NCBI RefSeq assembly: GCF_044647545.1
Contig: NZ_CP172818.1
Strand: one strand, 5' to 3'
Length of the DNA stretch: 64,000 nt
DNA from: Escherichia coli
Lineage (GTDB): Bacteria; Pseudomonadota; Gammaproteobacteria; Enterobacterales; Enterobacteriaceae
The stretch's first letter is position 1. Each line of letters begins with the position of its first letter. Of the stretch, positions 56,801-62,800 are shown piece by piece. The position numbers are program-made.

Positions 56801-59800
56801 AAAGGAAACCGGGAAATCCCTGGTTTTTCTGACAAGCAGACGCCATTATTTGTGTCTGCCTATGTTCGTTAATTCGTTCATCAGGAAATTATCTCAATGT
56901 CACGTTATAAAACAGACAATAAACAGCCACGATTTCGTTATTCAGTTCTGGCCCGCTGCGTGGCGTGGGCAAATATCTCTGTTCAGGTTCTTTTTCCACT
57001 CGCTGTCACCTTTACCCCAGTAATGGCGGCACGTGCGCAGCATGCAGTTCAGCCACGGTTGAGCATGGGAAATACTACGGTAACTGCTGATAATAACGTG
57101 GAGAAAAATGTCGCGTCGTTTGCCGCAAATGCCGGGACATTTTTAAGCAGTCAGCCAGATAGCGATGCGACACGTAACTTTATTACCGGAATGGCCACCG
57201 CTAAAGCTAACCAGGAAATACAGGAGTGGCTCGGGAAATACGGTACTGCGCGCGTCAAACTGAATGTCGATAAAGATTTCTCGCTGAAGGATTCTTCGCT
57301 GGAAATGCTTTATCCTATTTATGATACGCCGACAAATATGTTGTTCACTCAGGGGGCAATACATCGTACAGACGATCGTACTCAGTCAAATATTGGTTTT
57401 GGCTGGCGTCATTTTTCAGGAAATGACTGGATGGCGGGGGTGAATACTTTTATCGATCATGATTTATCCCGTAGTCATACCCGCATTGGTGTTGGTGCGG
57501 AATACTGGCGTGATTATTTGAAACTGAGCGCCAATGGTTATATCCGGGCTTCTGGCTGGAAAAAATCACCGGATGTTGAGGATTATCAGGAACGCCCGGC
57601 GAATGGCTGGGATATTCGTGCTGAGGGCTATTTACCTGCCTGGCCGCAGCTTGGCGCAAGCCTGATGTATGAACAGTATTATGGCGATGAAGTCGGGCTG
57701 TTTGGTAAAGATAAACGCCAGAAAGATCCACATGCGATTACCGCTGAAGTGAATTACACGCCAGTGCCTCTTACCCTGAGTGCCGGGCATAAGCAGTGCA
57801 AGAGTGGTGAGAATGACACTCGCTTTGGCCTGGAAGTTAATTATCGGATTGGCGAACCTCTGGAAAAACAACTCGATACAGACAGCATTCGCGAGCGTCG
57901 AATGCTGGCAGGCAGCCCTATGACCTGGTTGAGCGTAATAACAACATCGTTCTTGAGTACCGCAAATCTGAAGTGATTATTGCTCTGCCTGAGCGTATTG
58001 AAGGCAAGGGCGGTCAGACACTTTCCCTGGGGCTTGTGGTCAGCAAAGCAACTCACGGACTGAAAAATGTGCAATGGGAAGCGCCGTCATTACTGGCTGA
58101 AGGTGGCAAAATTACCGGTCAGGGTAGTCAGTGGCAAGTAACGCTCCCGGCTTACCGTCCAGGCAAAGACAATTATTATGCGATTTCAGCAGTTGCCTAC
58201 GATAACAAAGGTAATGCCTCGAAACATGTGCAGACAGAAGTGGTTATTACCGGAGCTGGTATGAGCGCCGATCGCACGGCGTTAACGCTTGACGGTCAGA
58301 GCCGTATTCAAATGCTTGCTAACGGTAATGAGCAAAAGCCGCTGGTGCTGTCTCTGCGCGACGCCGAGGGCCAGCCAGTCACGGGCAGAAGGGCAGATCA
58401 AGACTGAACTAACCTTCAAACCGGCTGGAAATATTGTGACTCGTTCCCTGAAATCCACTCTGTCTTTACGCACCGGAACCCACATCAGGGTGAGTTCACG
58501 CAACACCGAAGCCCTAGGGTATGTTACGACGGAACCATCAGTAGCAAGATTAGTACTACAACAAAACTCATCAGAACCAGATGAGATTGCAAACTCCACC
58601 ACCTAACGACCTAGGTAACGTGGTTGCTGCTGCTGTAAGAAGTTCTACTACACGCAGCTCGCTGGACAAATAATATGAAATATCCAATTACTCCCTCTAC
58701 CTGAATTAATTATCCGAACTAAAGCAACACAAACAAAAACCCTATCAAACAAATCTCACAAACAAAACCGAAAACAACCATACAAAAAACACTCCCCTCC
58801 CCCCCCCCTGGCCCCACCAACCACTCCTCTCTCCAACAGCACTCCTTTCCTACCAAGTCCACCACAACCCACTCACTCCACACACACAAACTCTAAAAGA
58901 GACCAAAAAAAAAACTACTATACGGTGGAACCTACTCACCGGGTAATCCTGTGAACCAGGAGAGCCACCCCAGTTCAGCGACGTTCCGCCAGACACTAAT
59001 GGGATACCGTTGTCCATTTCGGAACTAAAACCAGGGGATAACAGCGCCACGGTTTCTTCGACCCGTGCCGGATGAACGTTGTTTGCGCTCAGCTTCAGGG
59101 AAATACCCCAGTTAACGTAAAAACCGGTGGTGGCGGCACAGCTTACGGCAATCATAGACTACGGCAAAAGATGCCTTATAACAACCCCTGTGACCAGCCT
59201 CACGCCGGAACCGCCGTCATACGGCTGCGGCGTATCACGGCAATAATGTCTGGGAAGAAACAAGCGATGATGGGAAGCAGATTGCACAGTTTACGCGGCG
59301 GTGATGCGCGGAACCTATGAGATACGGCGTCGGCAGGAAATGACCACCTTCGATGCGACAGACTATAACGTTTACCGATAAGGCGATCGCAACCTTCTCT
59401 GGTATTGCAGGTCAGAACAAAATACTATCCTCATCAAACCAAACAACTATAAATTACGGTGTACTGTGCCAACCTTAACCGATCGCCTGCAGTTCAATGA
59501 TATTATGCGATCACGCTGACCGCACACAACTCGGCTTCGTTAAACCTGCAAGAATGACACTGCGACAACGATCAAAATGAGCAAAGGGCCAGGCTATGCC
59601 TTTACCTGACGGCGACCGAGATAAAAACACTAACCCTGTTCCGGGCGATCTTCATTATACACTCACGGCGCAAGTGAAGCGCATAATTCTGGGTGGAAGC
59701 CAAGATGAGCGGAAAGCAGAGTTGCAGTGCTACGATAATGCCGTGCGTGACCGAAAAAATTCATTCATGAGCAGAAAGTGATCAGAACAAGGTCAGTATA

Positions 59801-62800
59801 CAAACGAAAACCGCCAACTATATTCGTCGCGGATGATAAAAAGGCAGGTGCTTCGCTGAAAATCATATCGAATGTGATTTCATAATCTGGTGGCGATAAA
59901 TACAACGGCATAGTTGGGGGGAATGTGATGGGTCGACATATTAGGCTCCGGAAGGAGTACGGAGAAGGATTATCAATTCCTGCCGTCGAAAAATGACCGA
60001 TTTCGTGAACGGAAGAATCACGCGTACATTTAGAAAAGGCAGTGCTCCCACCGTTCACCTTCAAACCACCAGCGGGACAAAGAACCAAGGACCAAACCGC
60101 GGGGAGCCGAAAGCAAAGGGAAAAAAAAAAAAAAAAAAAAAAAAAAACAAAAGAAAAAAAAAAACAAACAAAGAGAAAACCAAAAAAACAATACCTCCTA
60201 GAGGCATATCAAAGCACAAGCCCACACAGCGGAAAGAGGCATACAGTCCTCGGTTAATTATCCACTCTTTTGGCATCTCTGAATCGGTTTGTTTACATAC
60301 CGTACCGGCAAAAGTTTCAACTGTGAGCAAATCGACTGATTTTGTTGACGGTTCGAACGTGGAGACGAAATAGATATCCGTCTTAAAATTCTTCATACAT
60401 CTGACTAAATGATGACGTCGCAGTTTGACTTCTTCATCCGGTGACTTATTCGACACTTCAATATCATATTTAAATGAATTGCCAAAAATAGGTGTCTCAG
60501 GAAAGTTGACTAATCTACACTCCGTCTTTTGCTGTTGACGTATTAAAAAAGAAGGGAAGATATTTGCGAGATCCCAATAATCACGGTGGCGGTATTCACG
60601 GGGAGAGCAGCCGAATAACTTTTTAAATTCGCGGCTGAATGACTGCTGTGAATCAAAATGCAAAGAGAGTGCAATATCAAGCATAGATTTCGCGGAGAGC
60701 CGGACAAGAATGGCGGCACGACAAAGCCTTCGTTTGCGAATGTATTCTCCCAAAGGCACATGCATGAAATTTCGGAACAGAAGCTGGATGTTGCGTCTGC
60801 TGTAGCCAGATTTCTGTGCGATATCTTCGATTGAAATAGGGTGCTCAAGATTGCACTCAATCCACTCCAGGAGCTGCTGTAGAATCTTCTGCCTGATCAT
60901 CACATACTCCGTTAATTCTTTGTCATATCGCACATTTTCGTTATGTCCTGGGCCCTAAGTGTATCAAAAACAGCAAGGCGCAAGGAAAAAGCACTGATAG
61001 CGTCTGCTTCATTGCCCCAAAAATAGAGAGATTTCTGCCCTCCATTATTAATGAATTTTTTGCATAAGTGATATCAAAATCCACATACTAATTTGAGGTT
61101 ACGTTTTAACGTAGACTCATTGCTCATACCTAATGGAGGGACTGACAGTGGAATTTTCCGTATAATCTGCTTCAGAGTATTGCAGATGCCCATCAAAAAT
61201 CGATTTCTCAGGTCATTCTGCGTTGGAATATTCAACGGGGAGTGGTCGTTATTCCGAAATCGACACATCAACAGCGTATCGAAAAAAATTTTGCTATTTG
61301 GGATTTCTCACTGACAGAGAAAGAAATGGCGCAAATTAGTTCGCTTGATTTGGGTTATGTTGGGGAATCGGTAAAACATTTTAATCCTGAGTTTGTTCGT
61401 GGTTGTCTTGCTGTAAAAATACATGATTGATATTAATCACTTATTTTACCTGAGACGACAAGAATCTTTTATCAGGGGAGTGATATTGATCTTCACTCTG
61501 TCATATCTCCGGTAATATGGCGTCAGGCTTCATTAACAGAAAGGGGGCCTGACGCCTGAAAAAGTGAACAACAGACAGTGTTCGGATTATCAATATTCAG
61601 TTTTTAACGTTGAACTGGATTCATTACTGCGTTGTTTAAGAATATCCCGCGCCGAATCTGCCATTATCATGACAGCACCTGCCAGCATCAGAGTATCTTT
61701 CAATACCAGGCGACCAGCACCGGATAAATAAGGGAAACCATGATGAGCGTCACCCAATGCGGGTACCCATGCCTCCGGGGTGGTGATTAAAAATGAGAGT
61801 GTTACCAGCGGCGTGGTAAATGCCATCAGCCCACCCAATAAACCTAACCAGCGATTGACAGGATTAGCCAAAACCAGCAGAGCAATAATCACCTCCACGA
61901 CGCCAAGACCGTTGGAAAAACCATAGGTATTATTAGCCGATTGCCATGCCCTTGCTTCTGGTTTGTATTCGCCTTCGTGAGTCAGATACTGTTTATAGTC
62001 TTCCGGGTGTTCATAAAAGAACGACATTAGTGGACTGTTTGCGACGAATGGTGTAATGCTGTCTGCCTCGTAAGGGACAAACTTTAATAACCCAATCCAC
62101 ATAAAAACAATCGCAATACTCAGACGAATCAATGTCAGGCCAATTTTATCTCCCCGACTTAACAAGTGCAGGTATTTCTCCATTGTAAACATCCTTATTT
62201 ATACAATACTGCTGTTGCGGTTGAATTATTATCAATTCGCATCGATGTGACTTTCCAGGATGAAGCATTATATTTTCTGGCCATATCAGCAATGGCATCC
62301 TCCAGAACTGTCGGTGATGCTGATACTGACGAGACGCTGATATGTTTCAGAATTATTTTATCATCTGCATTGGTGGAAAATGCCATAACGCCAGATAATA
62401 GTGTTGCAAATAAAACAGGTTTTTTAAACATATAAAATACCATCAATGAAGTGATTAAGAAGTTATATAATAACAGGGAATTAATAAGATTCTTTTCTCT
62501 GAGACGCCAGAATATTTGTTCTGGCGTCTGATTTTGAGTTTATTTGACTAATGAAAATAGATCATTGAGTGATTCGCTCATCGACGGATGAGTAAATATC
62601 TGATCGCGTAATATGCTATAAGGCAGCCCGGCATCCATCACCATTTTCACTATATTGATCATCTCGTGGGAGTCAACACACAGCAGTGATGCCCCTAATA
62701 TACATTGGGTTTTATTATCAACAATCGCTTTTAATACCCCACGGGTATCGTTCATCACTCTGGCGCGCGGAATTGCAGCTACAGGCAATGTCACCACCTG

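What the first reader, a model, noticed from the sequence alone, without database searches (positions are those of the whole stretch)
58410..60250. Compositionally aberrant, degenerate IS3-like stretch between the intimin-like pseudogene and ykgA
From about 57.9 kb the intimin-like reading frame picks up frameshifts. By 58.65-58.92 kb the top strand is almost G-free (A/C-rich), with a C10 run near 58795 and an A27 run at 60120-60146, and recognisable coding sequence only returns near 60.25 kb. Short islands still resemble an IS3-family transposase gene, and from memory the K-12 map has an IS3 at this position. The graded onset and offset and the base-specific losses are hard to explain biologically and look like a low-quality consensus or otherwise corrupted sequence. 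If it is real, it would be an unusually hypermutated IS remnant.
Basis: partly seen in the sequence, partly recalled or inferred. Interest (0 to 1): 0.7.

Follow-up and report, generated by a model that had tools for sequence, protein, structure and literature searches.

The report
Garbled assembly patch in fdeC gene
The odd 2.5-kb stretch is not a hypermutated mobile element: it is a sequence-assembly artefact, left where a genome built on the E. coli K-12 layout had to bridge a spot where K-12 (an IS3 insertion) and the strain actually sequenced (an intact fdeC adhesin gene) have unrelated DNA.

Summary
Window 57772-60227 is compositionally aberrant (G-poor, A/C-rich, C10, A27), has no long ORF, and has no counterpart in 5,426 complete E. 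coli genomes.

It is not a decayed IS3. About 80% of it is a noisy (54-91% per 100 nt), mostly colinear copy of the distal part of fdeC, with a ~1.24-kb gap and small duplications. Three short IS3-derived islands (67-86% identity) and two template-less low-complexity blocks are interleaved.

The key is the whole window. It is a two-parent mosaic.
- All sequence shared with FDAARGOS_497-type genomes is 100% that allele.
- A 39.9-kb block absent from those genomes (CP4-6 prophage + paoABCD) is 100% K-12 MG1655.
- 6.3 kb and 586 bp specific to the sample type are missing, as in K-12.

Sample-type SNPs run to within 8-13 bp of the K-12-only block. That excludes real recombination.

Every error in the window sits at a K-12-versus-sample structural difference:
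- the IS3/fdeC site;
- the crl::IS1 site (two 1-nt deletions);
- a 100-bp insertion (one G>A);
- an IS1 copy that is a site-wise mosaic.

The error spectrum is technical, not evolutionary: tv>ts, 1-nt indels, no codon-position bias, and loss of G and T.

Verdict: a consensus/assembly artefact in a deposited 4,499,902-bp NCBI contig. Interest is low.

The parts
56897..57771 (+). Intact 5' part of fdeC (inverse-autotransporter adhesin), sample-type allele
   Evidence: 0 mismatches to FDAARGOS_497 and CFSAN061771 fdeC. The ORF 56897-57976 is the truncated product.
57769..57776 (+). Left edge of the damage: a 3-nt deletion (CTG) gives CTCTT|ACCC, the word at the K-12 eaeH::IS3 junction, after which the intact-fdeC allele continues
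   Evidence: Three-way comparison. The K-12 alignment ends at 57776, which corresponds to the IS3A left end. The position is flagged 'K-12 base, not sample base'.
57772..58459 (+). fdeC nt ~877-1572 with sporadic errors: 1-nt deletions at 57917, 58387 and 58392; a 3-nt deletion at 57977; substitutions at 58226, 58453 and 58454
   Evidence: 99.4% identity, 5 gap openings; for the alignment.
58460..58727 (+). Noisy fdeC-derived blocks (fdeC ~1633-2309), 70-80% identity, deletion-rich
   Evidence: Jumping alignment; BLAST pieces.
58728..58914 (.). A/C-rich low-complexity block (C10, A10) with no detectable template
   Evidence: Tile scores at shuffle level against fdeC and IS3. The purine/pyrimidine-alphabet search is not above shuffles. 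No Rfam family, no tandem repeat and no plasmid match.
58915..59232 (+). Noisy fdeC nt 1816-2193 (80-88%), with IS3-specific bases blended in (IS3 nt 490-619 aligns to 58983-59138 at 67%)
59233..59727 (+). Noisy fdeC nt 3435-3769 after a ~1.24-kb jump, then out-of-order repeats of fdeC 3315-3398, 3817-3841 and 3438-3489
59667..59780 (+). Best IS3 island: IS3 nt 976-1075, 76.5% identity, E 1e-13. It is hybrid with fdeC at sites where the two chance to resemble each other
   Evidence: The best match in all E. coli genomes is canonical IS3 at 76.5%. The best fdeC-versus-IS3 match has E 0.66.
59776..60094 (+). Noisy fdeC nt ~3836-4200 (75-94%) with a 35-nt IS3 island (IS3 1133-1164) at 59861-59895
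60095..60227 (.). A-rich junk (A27, A11). It replaces the fdeC stop, the spacer and the last ~182 nt of the ykgA-like gene
   Evidence: It is translated as ...FFFLLFFFFFFFFFPF... in ORF 60064-60900(-).
60228..60900 (-). Clean 5' part of the ykgA-like AraC/HTH regulator gene, sample-type allele. Clean sequence resumes beside the K-12 IS3/ykgA junction (K-12 alignment starts at 60240)
   Evidence: 1 mismatch in 939 nt, at 60227.
5501..45367 (.). Context: a 39.9-kb block 100% identical to K-12 MG1655 (CP4-6 prophage + paoABCD, with K-12's IS30/IS911/IS5 insertions), absent from the sample-type genomes
1208..1216 (+). Second scar: two 1-nt deletions (G, T) that break crl, 10-20 nt from where MG1655 carries IS1I, in otherwise perfect sample-type sequence
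33172..33939 (-). IS1 copy that is a site-by-site mosaic of the K-12 type (35 sites), a variant type (25) and neither (5). The best natural match is 97.8%
61162..61301 (+). Hybrid layout in the aldo/keto-reductase remnant: K-12's 586-bp deletion is present, but a 100-bp piece missing from K-12 is retained. The only mismatch of the right flank (61284, G>A) lies inside it

Best explanation
The stretch is a technical artefact of how the deposited genome was built.

The record appears to be a consensus laid on an E. coli K-12 MG1655-type template, using reads from a different strain whose alleles are identical to FDAARGOS_497/IMT16316/MS6198-type genomes.
- Where both genomes share sequence, the consensus is perfect sample allele.
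- Where only K-12 has sequence, the template survives unchanged.
- Where only the sample has long sequence, it is dropped.

At eaeH/fdeC the two are non-homologous over a short interval. K-12 has a 1,255-bp IS3. The sample has about 3.68 kb: the distal fdeC, a spacer and the 3' end of the ykgA-like gene. Reads anchored in the flanks were forced against the IS3 template there. The consensus became a noisy fdeC copy of intermediate length (2,456 nt), with IS3 bases surviving where the two sequences resemble each other by chance, plus local duplications and two low-complexity fill-ins.

What is shown: the mosaic structure, the coincidence of the damaged interval with the K-12 IS3 junctions, the error spectrum, and the presence of the garbled sequence in an NCBI contig.

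What is inferred: the kind of pipeline. Noisy long reads polished on a reference, or iterative mapping with local reassembly, would both fit.
For: (1) The stretch is bounded by the two K-12 IS3 junctions. The K-12 alignment ends at 57776 and resumes at 60240. The first lesion, at 57772, creates the K-12 junction word.

(2) Window-wide mosaic. There are 0 mismatches to FDAARGOS_497 over 3916-5500, 45368-56346 and 56346-57771, 0 over 1-4216 apart from 2 gaps, and 1 each over 60225-61163 and 61162-64000. There are 0 mismatches to K-12 over 5501-21703, 22460-33189 and 33931-45367. That block is exactly what FDAARGOS_497 lacks.

(3) Sample-type SNPs at 5493 and 45380 abut the K-12-only block. SNPs at 56293 and 56380 flank the site of the missing 6.3 kb. 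No complete genome has these junctions in one piece at 100%.

(4) All departures from the parents sit at structural differences: crl/IS1I, the IS3/fdeC site, the 100-bp insert, and the IS1 mosaic.

(5) Error spectrum inside the stretch: 55 transitions against 88 transversions; 80 inserted and 126 deleted bases, mostly singles; codon positions 49/40/54. G is 13.7% substituted and 16.7% deleted, against 5.4% and 0.8% for A. Inserted bases are mostly A and C.

(6) fdeC and IS3 pieces are each colinear and interleaved, switching at chance-similar words. IS3 and fdeC are otherwise unrelated.

(7) ORFs that include the first frameshift and the translated poly-A junk occur exactly once in 15 billion proteins, on one NCBI contig of 4,499,902 bp. 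That contig is shorter than K-12 and than the sample-type genomes.
Against: I could not retrieve the record, its assembly-method field or its reads, so the pipeline is inferred.

A plain 'no coverage, keep the reference' consensus would have left an intact IS3. Some step must therefore have pulled non-template sequence in, and I cannot name the tool.

No standard error model that I know predicts the A>C>T>G bias or an A27 run.

The 586-bp sample-specific segment was not recovered, whereas more than 1 kb of net sequence was added at the IS3 site. That needs an ad hoc explanation, such as aligner gap limits versus anchored spanning reads.
Confidence: 0.88

Rival explanations
1. A mixed-sample de novo assembly. 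DNA from a K-12 strain and from an FDAARGOS_497-type strain was sequenced together. The assembler collapsed shared regions to the majority allele and took one branch at each large strain-specific bubble. At the short IS3-versus-fdeC bubble it merged reads of both alleles into one consensus. This is also an artefact. It differs from the best explanation only in where the K-12 sequence came from (contaminating reads rather than a template).
For: It gives the same mosaic and junction pattern. IS3 and fdeC bases are blended at single-base scale. The IS1 at 33.2 kb is a site-wise mosaic of two variants. The mixed outcome at 61.2 kb, with the K-12 allele for the 586-bp indel and the sample allele for the 100-bp indel, looks like branch-by-branch choice.
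Against: The contig length of 4,499,902 bp is below both parents, whereas a mixture assembly usually inflates. Shared regions show not one K-12 base among hundreds of informative sites, so K-12 reads would have to be a clear minority yet still win several bubbles.
Confidence: 0.25
2. A real K-12 x wild-strain recombinant (laboratory cross or natural), in which only the 2.5-kb stretch is a local low-quality patch. For example, a gap in the repetitive Ig-domain region of fdeC could have been filled with a raw long read.
For: Long tracts 100% identical to each parent are what conjugational recombinants look like. fdeC has repeated Ig-like domains that break short-read assemblies.
Against: Donor-type SNPs lie 8 and 13 bp from the 39.9-kb K-12-only block, and 53 and 34 bp either side of the missing 6.3 kb. 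That leaves no homologous K-12 flank for crossovers. IS3-specific bases inside the patch and the K-12 junction word at 57772 are not expected from a raw read of intact fdeC. The crl scar lies at the MG1655 IS1I site.
Confidence: 0.06
3. A biologically real, hypermutated or anciently decayed remnant of fdeC and/or IS3. Possible causes would be targeted deaminase-type mutagenesis, error-prone repair, or a very old pseudogene.
For: Strong base-specific bias (loss of G and T on the top strand) and a graded onset. The sequence is in a deposited record.
Against: Transversions outnumber transitions, 88 to 55. There are 206 inserted or deleted bases, mostly 1 nt. There is no codon-position signal. The A/C block does not align to any local template in a purine/pyrimidine alphabet, so it is not saturated transitions. 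Divergence of 20-45% lies between flanks that are 100.0% identical to living strains, which neutral decay cannot produce. fdeC and IS3 are chimeric at base level. No other genome among 5,426 has it.
Confidence: 0.02

Closest known systems
fdeC / eaeH locus of E. coli: a full-length inverse-autotransporter adhesin in most strains, and an N-terminal pseudogene in K-12 (Nesta et al. 2012, PMC3324786, read; K-12 annotation)
   Same: The window holds the same locus in the same neighbourhood: ykgM/ykgO/ykgR upstream, and the ykgA-like HTH gene and rclCBA downstream. The first 875 nt of fdeC are intact and identical to natural alleles.
   Different: Neither natural state is present. It is not the 4,254-nt intact gene, and it is not K-12's eaeH'-IS3-'ykgA. 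It is a 2,456-nt blend of the two with added noise.
IS3 (IS3A of K-12 MG1655, 1,255 bp, insE/insF)
   Same: Three colinear, same-strand islands match IS3 nt 490-619, 976-1075 and 1133-1164. The stretch occupies the interval where K-12 has IS3A.
   Different: Only about 300 nt match, at 67-86% identity. There are no terminal inverted repeats, no transposase ORFs (18 stops in frame 1; the longest ORFs inside the stretch are about 100 codons), and no direct repeats. Most of the stretch is fdeC-derived.
Reference bias / template carry-over in reference-guided consensus genomes, and collapsed-allele consensus errors in long-read polishing (general knowledge of assembly practice; not tested against a named tool)
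   Same: Template sequence is retained where the sample has none. Sample-specific insertions are lost. Repeats (IS1) are averaged. Errors are confined to template-versus-sample structural breakpoints.
   Different: The pronounced A/C enrichment and the A27 run are not a textbook signature of any pipeline I can name.

Membership tests
IS3-family insertion sequence (remnant) | Terminal inverted repeats of IS3 | tested here: not met
   Left and right IR words gave 0 matches in the whole window with up to 3 mismatches.
IS3-family insertion sequence (remnant) | orfA/orfB transposase coding sequence (insE/insF), or a recognisable majority of it | tested here: not met
   Only IS3 nt 490-619, 976-1075 and 1133-1164 align, at 67-86%. 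IS3 raises the jumping-alignment score by 39 out of 2226. Frame 1 has 18 stops. No ORF inside the stretch exceeds about 107 codons.
   59667-59780 against IS3 gives E 1e-13 at 76.5% identity. Canonical IS3 is the best hit across all E. coli genomes. The similarity is not inherited from fdeC.
fdeC (inverse autotransporter adhesin gene), intact or natural pseudogene allele | Colinear homology to fdeC along its length | tested here: inconclusive
   The 5' 875 nt are identical. The distal blocks are colinear overall but noisy, with about 1.24 kb (nt 2193-3435) missing and short out-of-order repeats.
fdeC (inverse autotransporter adhesin gene), intact or natural pseudogene allele | Divergence pattern of an evolving gene or pseudogene: transition-rich, third-position bias or at least genome-typical levels | tested here: not met
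   ts:tv is 55:88. Codon positions are 49/40/54. There are 132 single-base indel events. Divergence is 20-45% between flanks at 0%.
Base-specific hypermutation (deaminase-type or DGR-type) | Substitutions restricted to one or two base classes, without indels, against a recognisable template | tested here: not met
   All 12 substitution types occur and indels outnumber substitutions. The low-complexity blocks have no template even in an R/Y alphabet.
Reference-templated (K-12) consensus artefact | Template-identical sequence exactly where the sample genome type lacks sequence, and sample-identical sequence elsewhere | tested here: met
Reference-templated (K-12) consensus artefact | Errors confined to template-versus-sample structural breakpoints | tested here: met
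   crl/IS1I, IS3/fdeC, the 100-bp insert and the IS1 mosaic. There are 0 errors in about 21.6 kb of shared unique sequence.
Reference-templated (K-12) consensus artefact | Read-level evidence: no reads supporting the stretch, and the declared assembly method | not testable with these tools
   The record could not be retrieved. No read data are available.

The most novel reading that the evidence does not exclude
The deposited strain is a genuine K-12 x wild-E. coli hybrid, and the 57772-60227 sequence is physically real. In that case it would be a locally hypermutated, template-switched scar, produced for example by repeated microhomology-mediated, error-prone repair between an IS3 and fdeC.
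Probability: 0.02. Interest if true: 0.7.

Novelty: not a real feature. Interest (0 to 1): 0.08.

Why it matters
There is no new biology here.

The practical value is quality control. A 4.5-Mb E. coli record in a public archive appears to be a chimaera of K-12 template and another strain's reads. It carries a phantom CP4-6 prophage and pao operon. It lacks strain-specific genes. It has a falsely broken crl and a garbled fdeC.

Such records can seed false calls of pseudogenes, gene presence or absence and 'novel' sequence in pangenome or machine-learning data sets.

The simple diagnostic used here is transferable: perfect identity to two parents, with every error at a structural breakpoint.

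Tried and rejected
(1) Finding the source record. An exact 51-nt pattern from the A/C block found nothing in the GTDB representative genomes. The gene-position index does not hold the three unique proteins. A full-text search for the contig length returned only an unrelated paper.

(2) Saturated G>A/T>C transitions (a deaminase-type explanation for the A/C-only block). Purine/pyrimidine-alphabet alignment to fdeC, IS3 and both loci was at or below shuffle level, with two marginal A-block scores one point above the shuffle maximum, and the substitution spectrum is transversion-rich.

(3) A better-matching IS3-family relative. None exists; canonical IS3 at 76.5% is the best match in all E. coli genomes.

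(4) A divergent fdeC allele imported from another species. Rejected because indels are mostly 1 nt, there is no codon-position bias and no ORF is preserved.

(5) Generative-model or synthetic sequence. I considered this early, because of the blending at shared words and the low-complexity runs. I dropped it once the flanks proved 100.000% identical to natural genomes over 11-16 kb and the garbled ORFs were found in an NCBI contig.

(6) My first reading of the IS1 at 21.7 kb as 'noisy' was wrong. It is a natural rare variant at 99.5%.

(7) Structured RNA, tandem repeat or plasmid origin for the low-complexity blocks. No Rfam match, only the A-run in TRF, and no plasmid match.

(8) The first jumping alignment, with a low jump penalty, over-fitted. 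It was redone with a stricter penalty and shuffled-IS3 controls.

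
Full report
**1. Observation**

Window 58410-60250 is as odd as described. GC skew reaches -0.80 at 58700-58899, and AT skew reaches +0.71 at 60000-60199. Apart from one T9, the only homopolymers of 9 or more in 64 kb are C10 (58799-58808), A10 (58905-58914), A27 (60121-60147) and A11 (60154-60164). Apart from one G+C-rich tile at 26401-26500, the low-entropy tiles (mononucleotide entropy below 1.7, or one base under 6%) are 58701-58900 and 60051-60250.

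No ORF inside the stretch exceeds about 107 codons. None of 5,426 complete E. coli genomes covers 80% or more of it.

**2. What the stretch is made of**

Sensitive BLAST and a jumping alignment against intact fdeC and K-12's IS3A show a backbone of noisy fdeC blocks:
- fdeC nt 1491-2309 at window 58380-58727;
- nt 1816-2193 at 58915-59232;
- after a ~1.24-kb jump, nt 3435-3769 at 59233-59571;
- short out-of-order repeats of nt 3315-3398, 3817-3841 and 3438-3489;
- nt 3836-4289 at 59776-60171.

Identity per 100 nt ranges from 54 to 91%.

Interleaved are three IS3 islands on the same strand and in IS3 order:
- nt 490-619 at 58983-59138;
- nt 976-1075 at 59667-59780 (76.5%, E 1e-13);
- nt 1133-1164 at 59861-59895.

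No other IS in any E. coli genome fits better. fdeC itself has no real similarity to IS3 (best E 0.66). IS3 adds +39 to the alignment score, against +0 to +13 for shuffled IS3. The contribution is therefore real but small.

Switches between templates fall at short words that the two share by chance (for example GATAATGnCTGnGTG and AAGTGA). In places single bases alternate between the two sources.

Two blocks, 58728-58914 (A/C-rich) and 60095-60227 (A-rich), have no template. They are not above shuffles in the nucleotide alphabet, and at most marginally above them in the purine/pyrimidine alphabet. They match no Rfam family and no plasmid, and TRF finds no tandem repeat other than the A-run. 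The IS3 terminal repeats are absent.

**3. Error spectrum**

Within the fdeC-templated blocks:
- There are 55 transitions and 88 transversions.
- 80 bases are inserted and 126 deleted, in 132 single-base events and few longer ones.
- Substitutions by codon position are 49/40/54.
- G is hit hardest (13.7% substituted, 16.7% deleted), then T (11.9/10.2), C (8.5/6.4) and A (5.4/0.8).
- Inserted bases are mostly A (31) and C (24).

It is the opposite of an evolutionary or deaminase signature.

**4. The decisive context: the window is a two-parent mosaic**

Against K-12 MG1655 the window has 0 mismatches over 5501-21703, 22460-33189 and 33931-45367. That is the CP4-6 prophage with K-12's own IS30/IS911/IS5 insertions, plus paoABCD. 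Elsewhere there are 10-70 mismatches per kb.

Against FDAARGOS_497 (and IMT16316, MS6198, ECONIH1 and others) the rest of the window is perfect:
- 0 mismatches over 1-4216 apart from two gaps;
- 0 over 3916-5500;
- 0 over 45368-56346 (10,979 nt);
- 0 over 56346-57771;
- 1 mismatch in 60225-61163;
- 1 mismatch in 61162-64000.

FDAARGOS_497 runs proA-thrW-integrase remnant-yagU. It therefore lacks exactly the block that is 100% K-12 in the window. Conversely, it has 6.3 kb upstream of fdeC and 586 bp in an aldo/keto-reductase gene that the window lacks, as K-12 does.

Sample-type SNPs reach to 8 bp (5493) and 13 bp (45380) from the K-12-only block. They also lie 53 and 34 bp either side of the missing 6.3 kb. 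Homologous crossovers cannot produce that. A consensus laid on a K-12 layout does so automatically. No complete genome has these junctions in one piece at 100%.

**5. Errors occur only at structural breakpoints**

Four sites carry all the departures from the two parents.
- (a) The garbled stretch lies between the K-12 eaeH/IS3 junction and the IS3/ykgA junction. The K-12 alignment ends at 57776 and resumes at 60240. Its first lesion, a 3-nt deletion at 57772, recreates the K-12 junction word CTCTT|ACCC before the fdeC allele continues.
- (b) crl carries two 1-nt deletions (a G and a T) 10-20 nt from where MG1655 has IS1I, within 4.2 kb of otherwise perfect sequence. They break the crl reading frame.
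- (c) The single mismatch of the right flank (61284, G>A) lies inside a 100-bp piece that K-12 lacks.
- (d) The IS1 at 33.2 kb is a site-wise mosaic of the K-12 type (35 sites), a variant type (25) and neither (5). Its best natural match is 97.8% among about 74,000 copies. The IS1 at 21.7 kb is simply a different natural variant (99.5%) from the one K-12 has at that site.

About 21.6 kb of shared unique sequence contains no error at all.

**6. The sequence is in a public record**

Three ORFs were looked up exactly: 56897-57973 (ends after the first frameshift), 57973-58404, and 60064-60900(-). The C-terminus of the last is the translated poly-A junk. Each exists exactly once among about 15 billion proteins, on one NCBI contig of 4,499,902 bp. 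That contig is not among the RefSeq complete genomes.

I could not retrieve the record.

**7. Mechanism (inferred)**

Reads of an FDAARGOS_497-type strain were turned into a genome on a K-12 MG1655-type template. A less likely alternative is that they were co-assembled with K-12 reads.

Small differences were corrected, including SNPs and a 100-bp insertion. The 768-bp IS1 in crl was removed, imperfectly. Large sample-specific insertions were lost, and template-only regions were kept.

At the IS3/fdeC site, reads anchored on both flanks carried 3.68 kb where the template had 1.26 kb of unrelated DNA. Forced alignment and windowed consensus gave a 2.46-kb hybrid that later polishing could not repair.

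The exact software, and the cause of the A/C bias and the A27 run, remain unknown.

**8. Comparison with what is known, and verdict**

The locus is the well-described fdeC/eaeH locus: full length (1,416 aa) in most E. coli and an N-terminal pseudogene in K-12 (PMC3324786; K-12 annotation).

The stretch is neither allele. It fails the defining tests for an IS3 remnant and for a naturally diverged fdeC allele. It meets the tests I could apply for a template-carry-over artefact.

The 'corrupted consensus' suspicion is supported. The 'IS3-like remnant' label is only marginally right. This is not a real biological feature, and interest is low except as a data-quality flag.

Noticed in passing
window 5501-45367: A 39.9-kb block is 100% identical to K-12 MG1655. 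It holds the CP4-6 cryptic prophage (including argF and K-12's IS30-in-IS911 and IS5) plus paoABCD. It is embedded in sequence that is 100% identical to FDAARGOS_497-type genomes, which lack this block. It is probably template carry-over, so this prophage and operon are likely phantom in the deposited genome.
   Followed up: yes
window 1208 and 1216 (crl, 1151-1552): Two single-base deletions (G and T) frameshift crl. They lie 10-20 nt from the site where MG1655 has IS1I, in otherwise perfect sequence. This is a likely false crl pseudogene.
   Followed up: yes
window 33172-33939: This IS1 copy alternates site by site between K-12-type and variant-type bases. Its best match among about 74,000 IS1 copies is 97.8%. 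It looks like a consensus over reads from different IS1 variants.
   Followed up: yes
window 21707-22470: The IS1 here is a rare natural variant with a 6-bp deletion. It is 99.5% identical to copies on 6.85-kb small plasmids and in strain NT1F25, and differs from the IS1B that K-12 has at this exact site (92.9%).
   Followed up: partly
window 56346: There is a clean junction where FDAARGOS_497-type genomes carry 6.3 kb (NADH-dependent flavin oxidoreductase, alpha/beta hydrolase, two LysR regulators, two aldo/keto reductases) upstream of fdeC. The window follows the K-12 layout although the SNPs on both sides are sample-type.
   Followed up: yes
window 61162-61301: The aldo/keto-reductase remnant (ykgQ region) shows K-12's 586-bp deletion but retains a 100-bp segment that K-12 lost between GATTTCTCA direct repeats. 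This layout was not seen in one piece at 100% in any complete genome.
   Followed up: partly
window 26401-26500: A 100-nt tile is unusually G+C-rich (G 45, C 34, A 5), inside yagF in the K-12-identical block. It is presumably natural K-12 sequence.
   Followed up: no
protein cluster of window 57973-58404 (P0138): A different 144-aa fragment of the same FdeC region is annotated as a hypothetical protein on 22 contigs of other E. coli assemblies (BBP40661.1, BED19386.1). Natural or assembly-derived breaks in fdeC at a similar position may therefore exist elsewhere.
   Followed up: no
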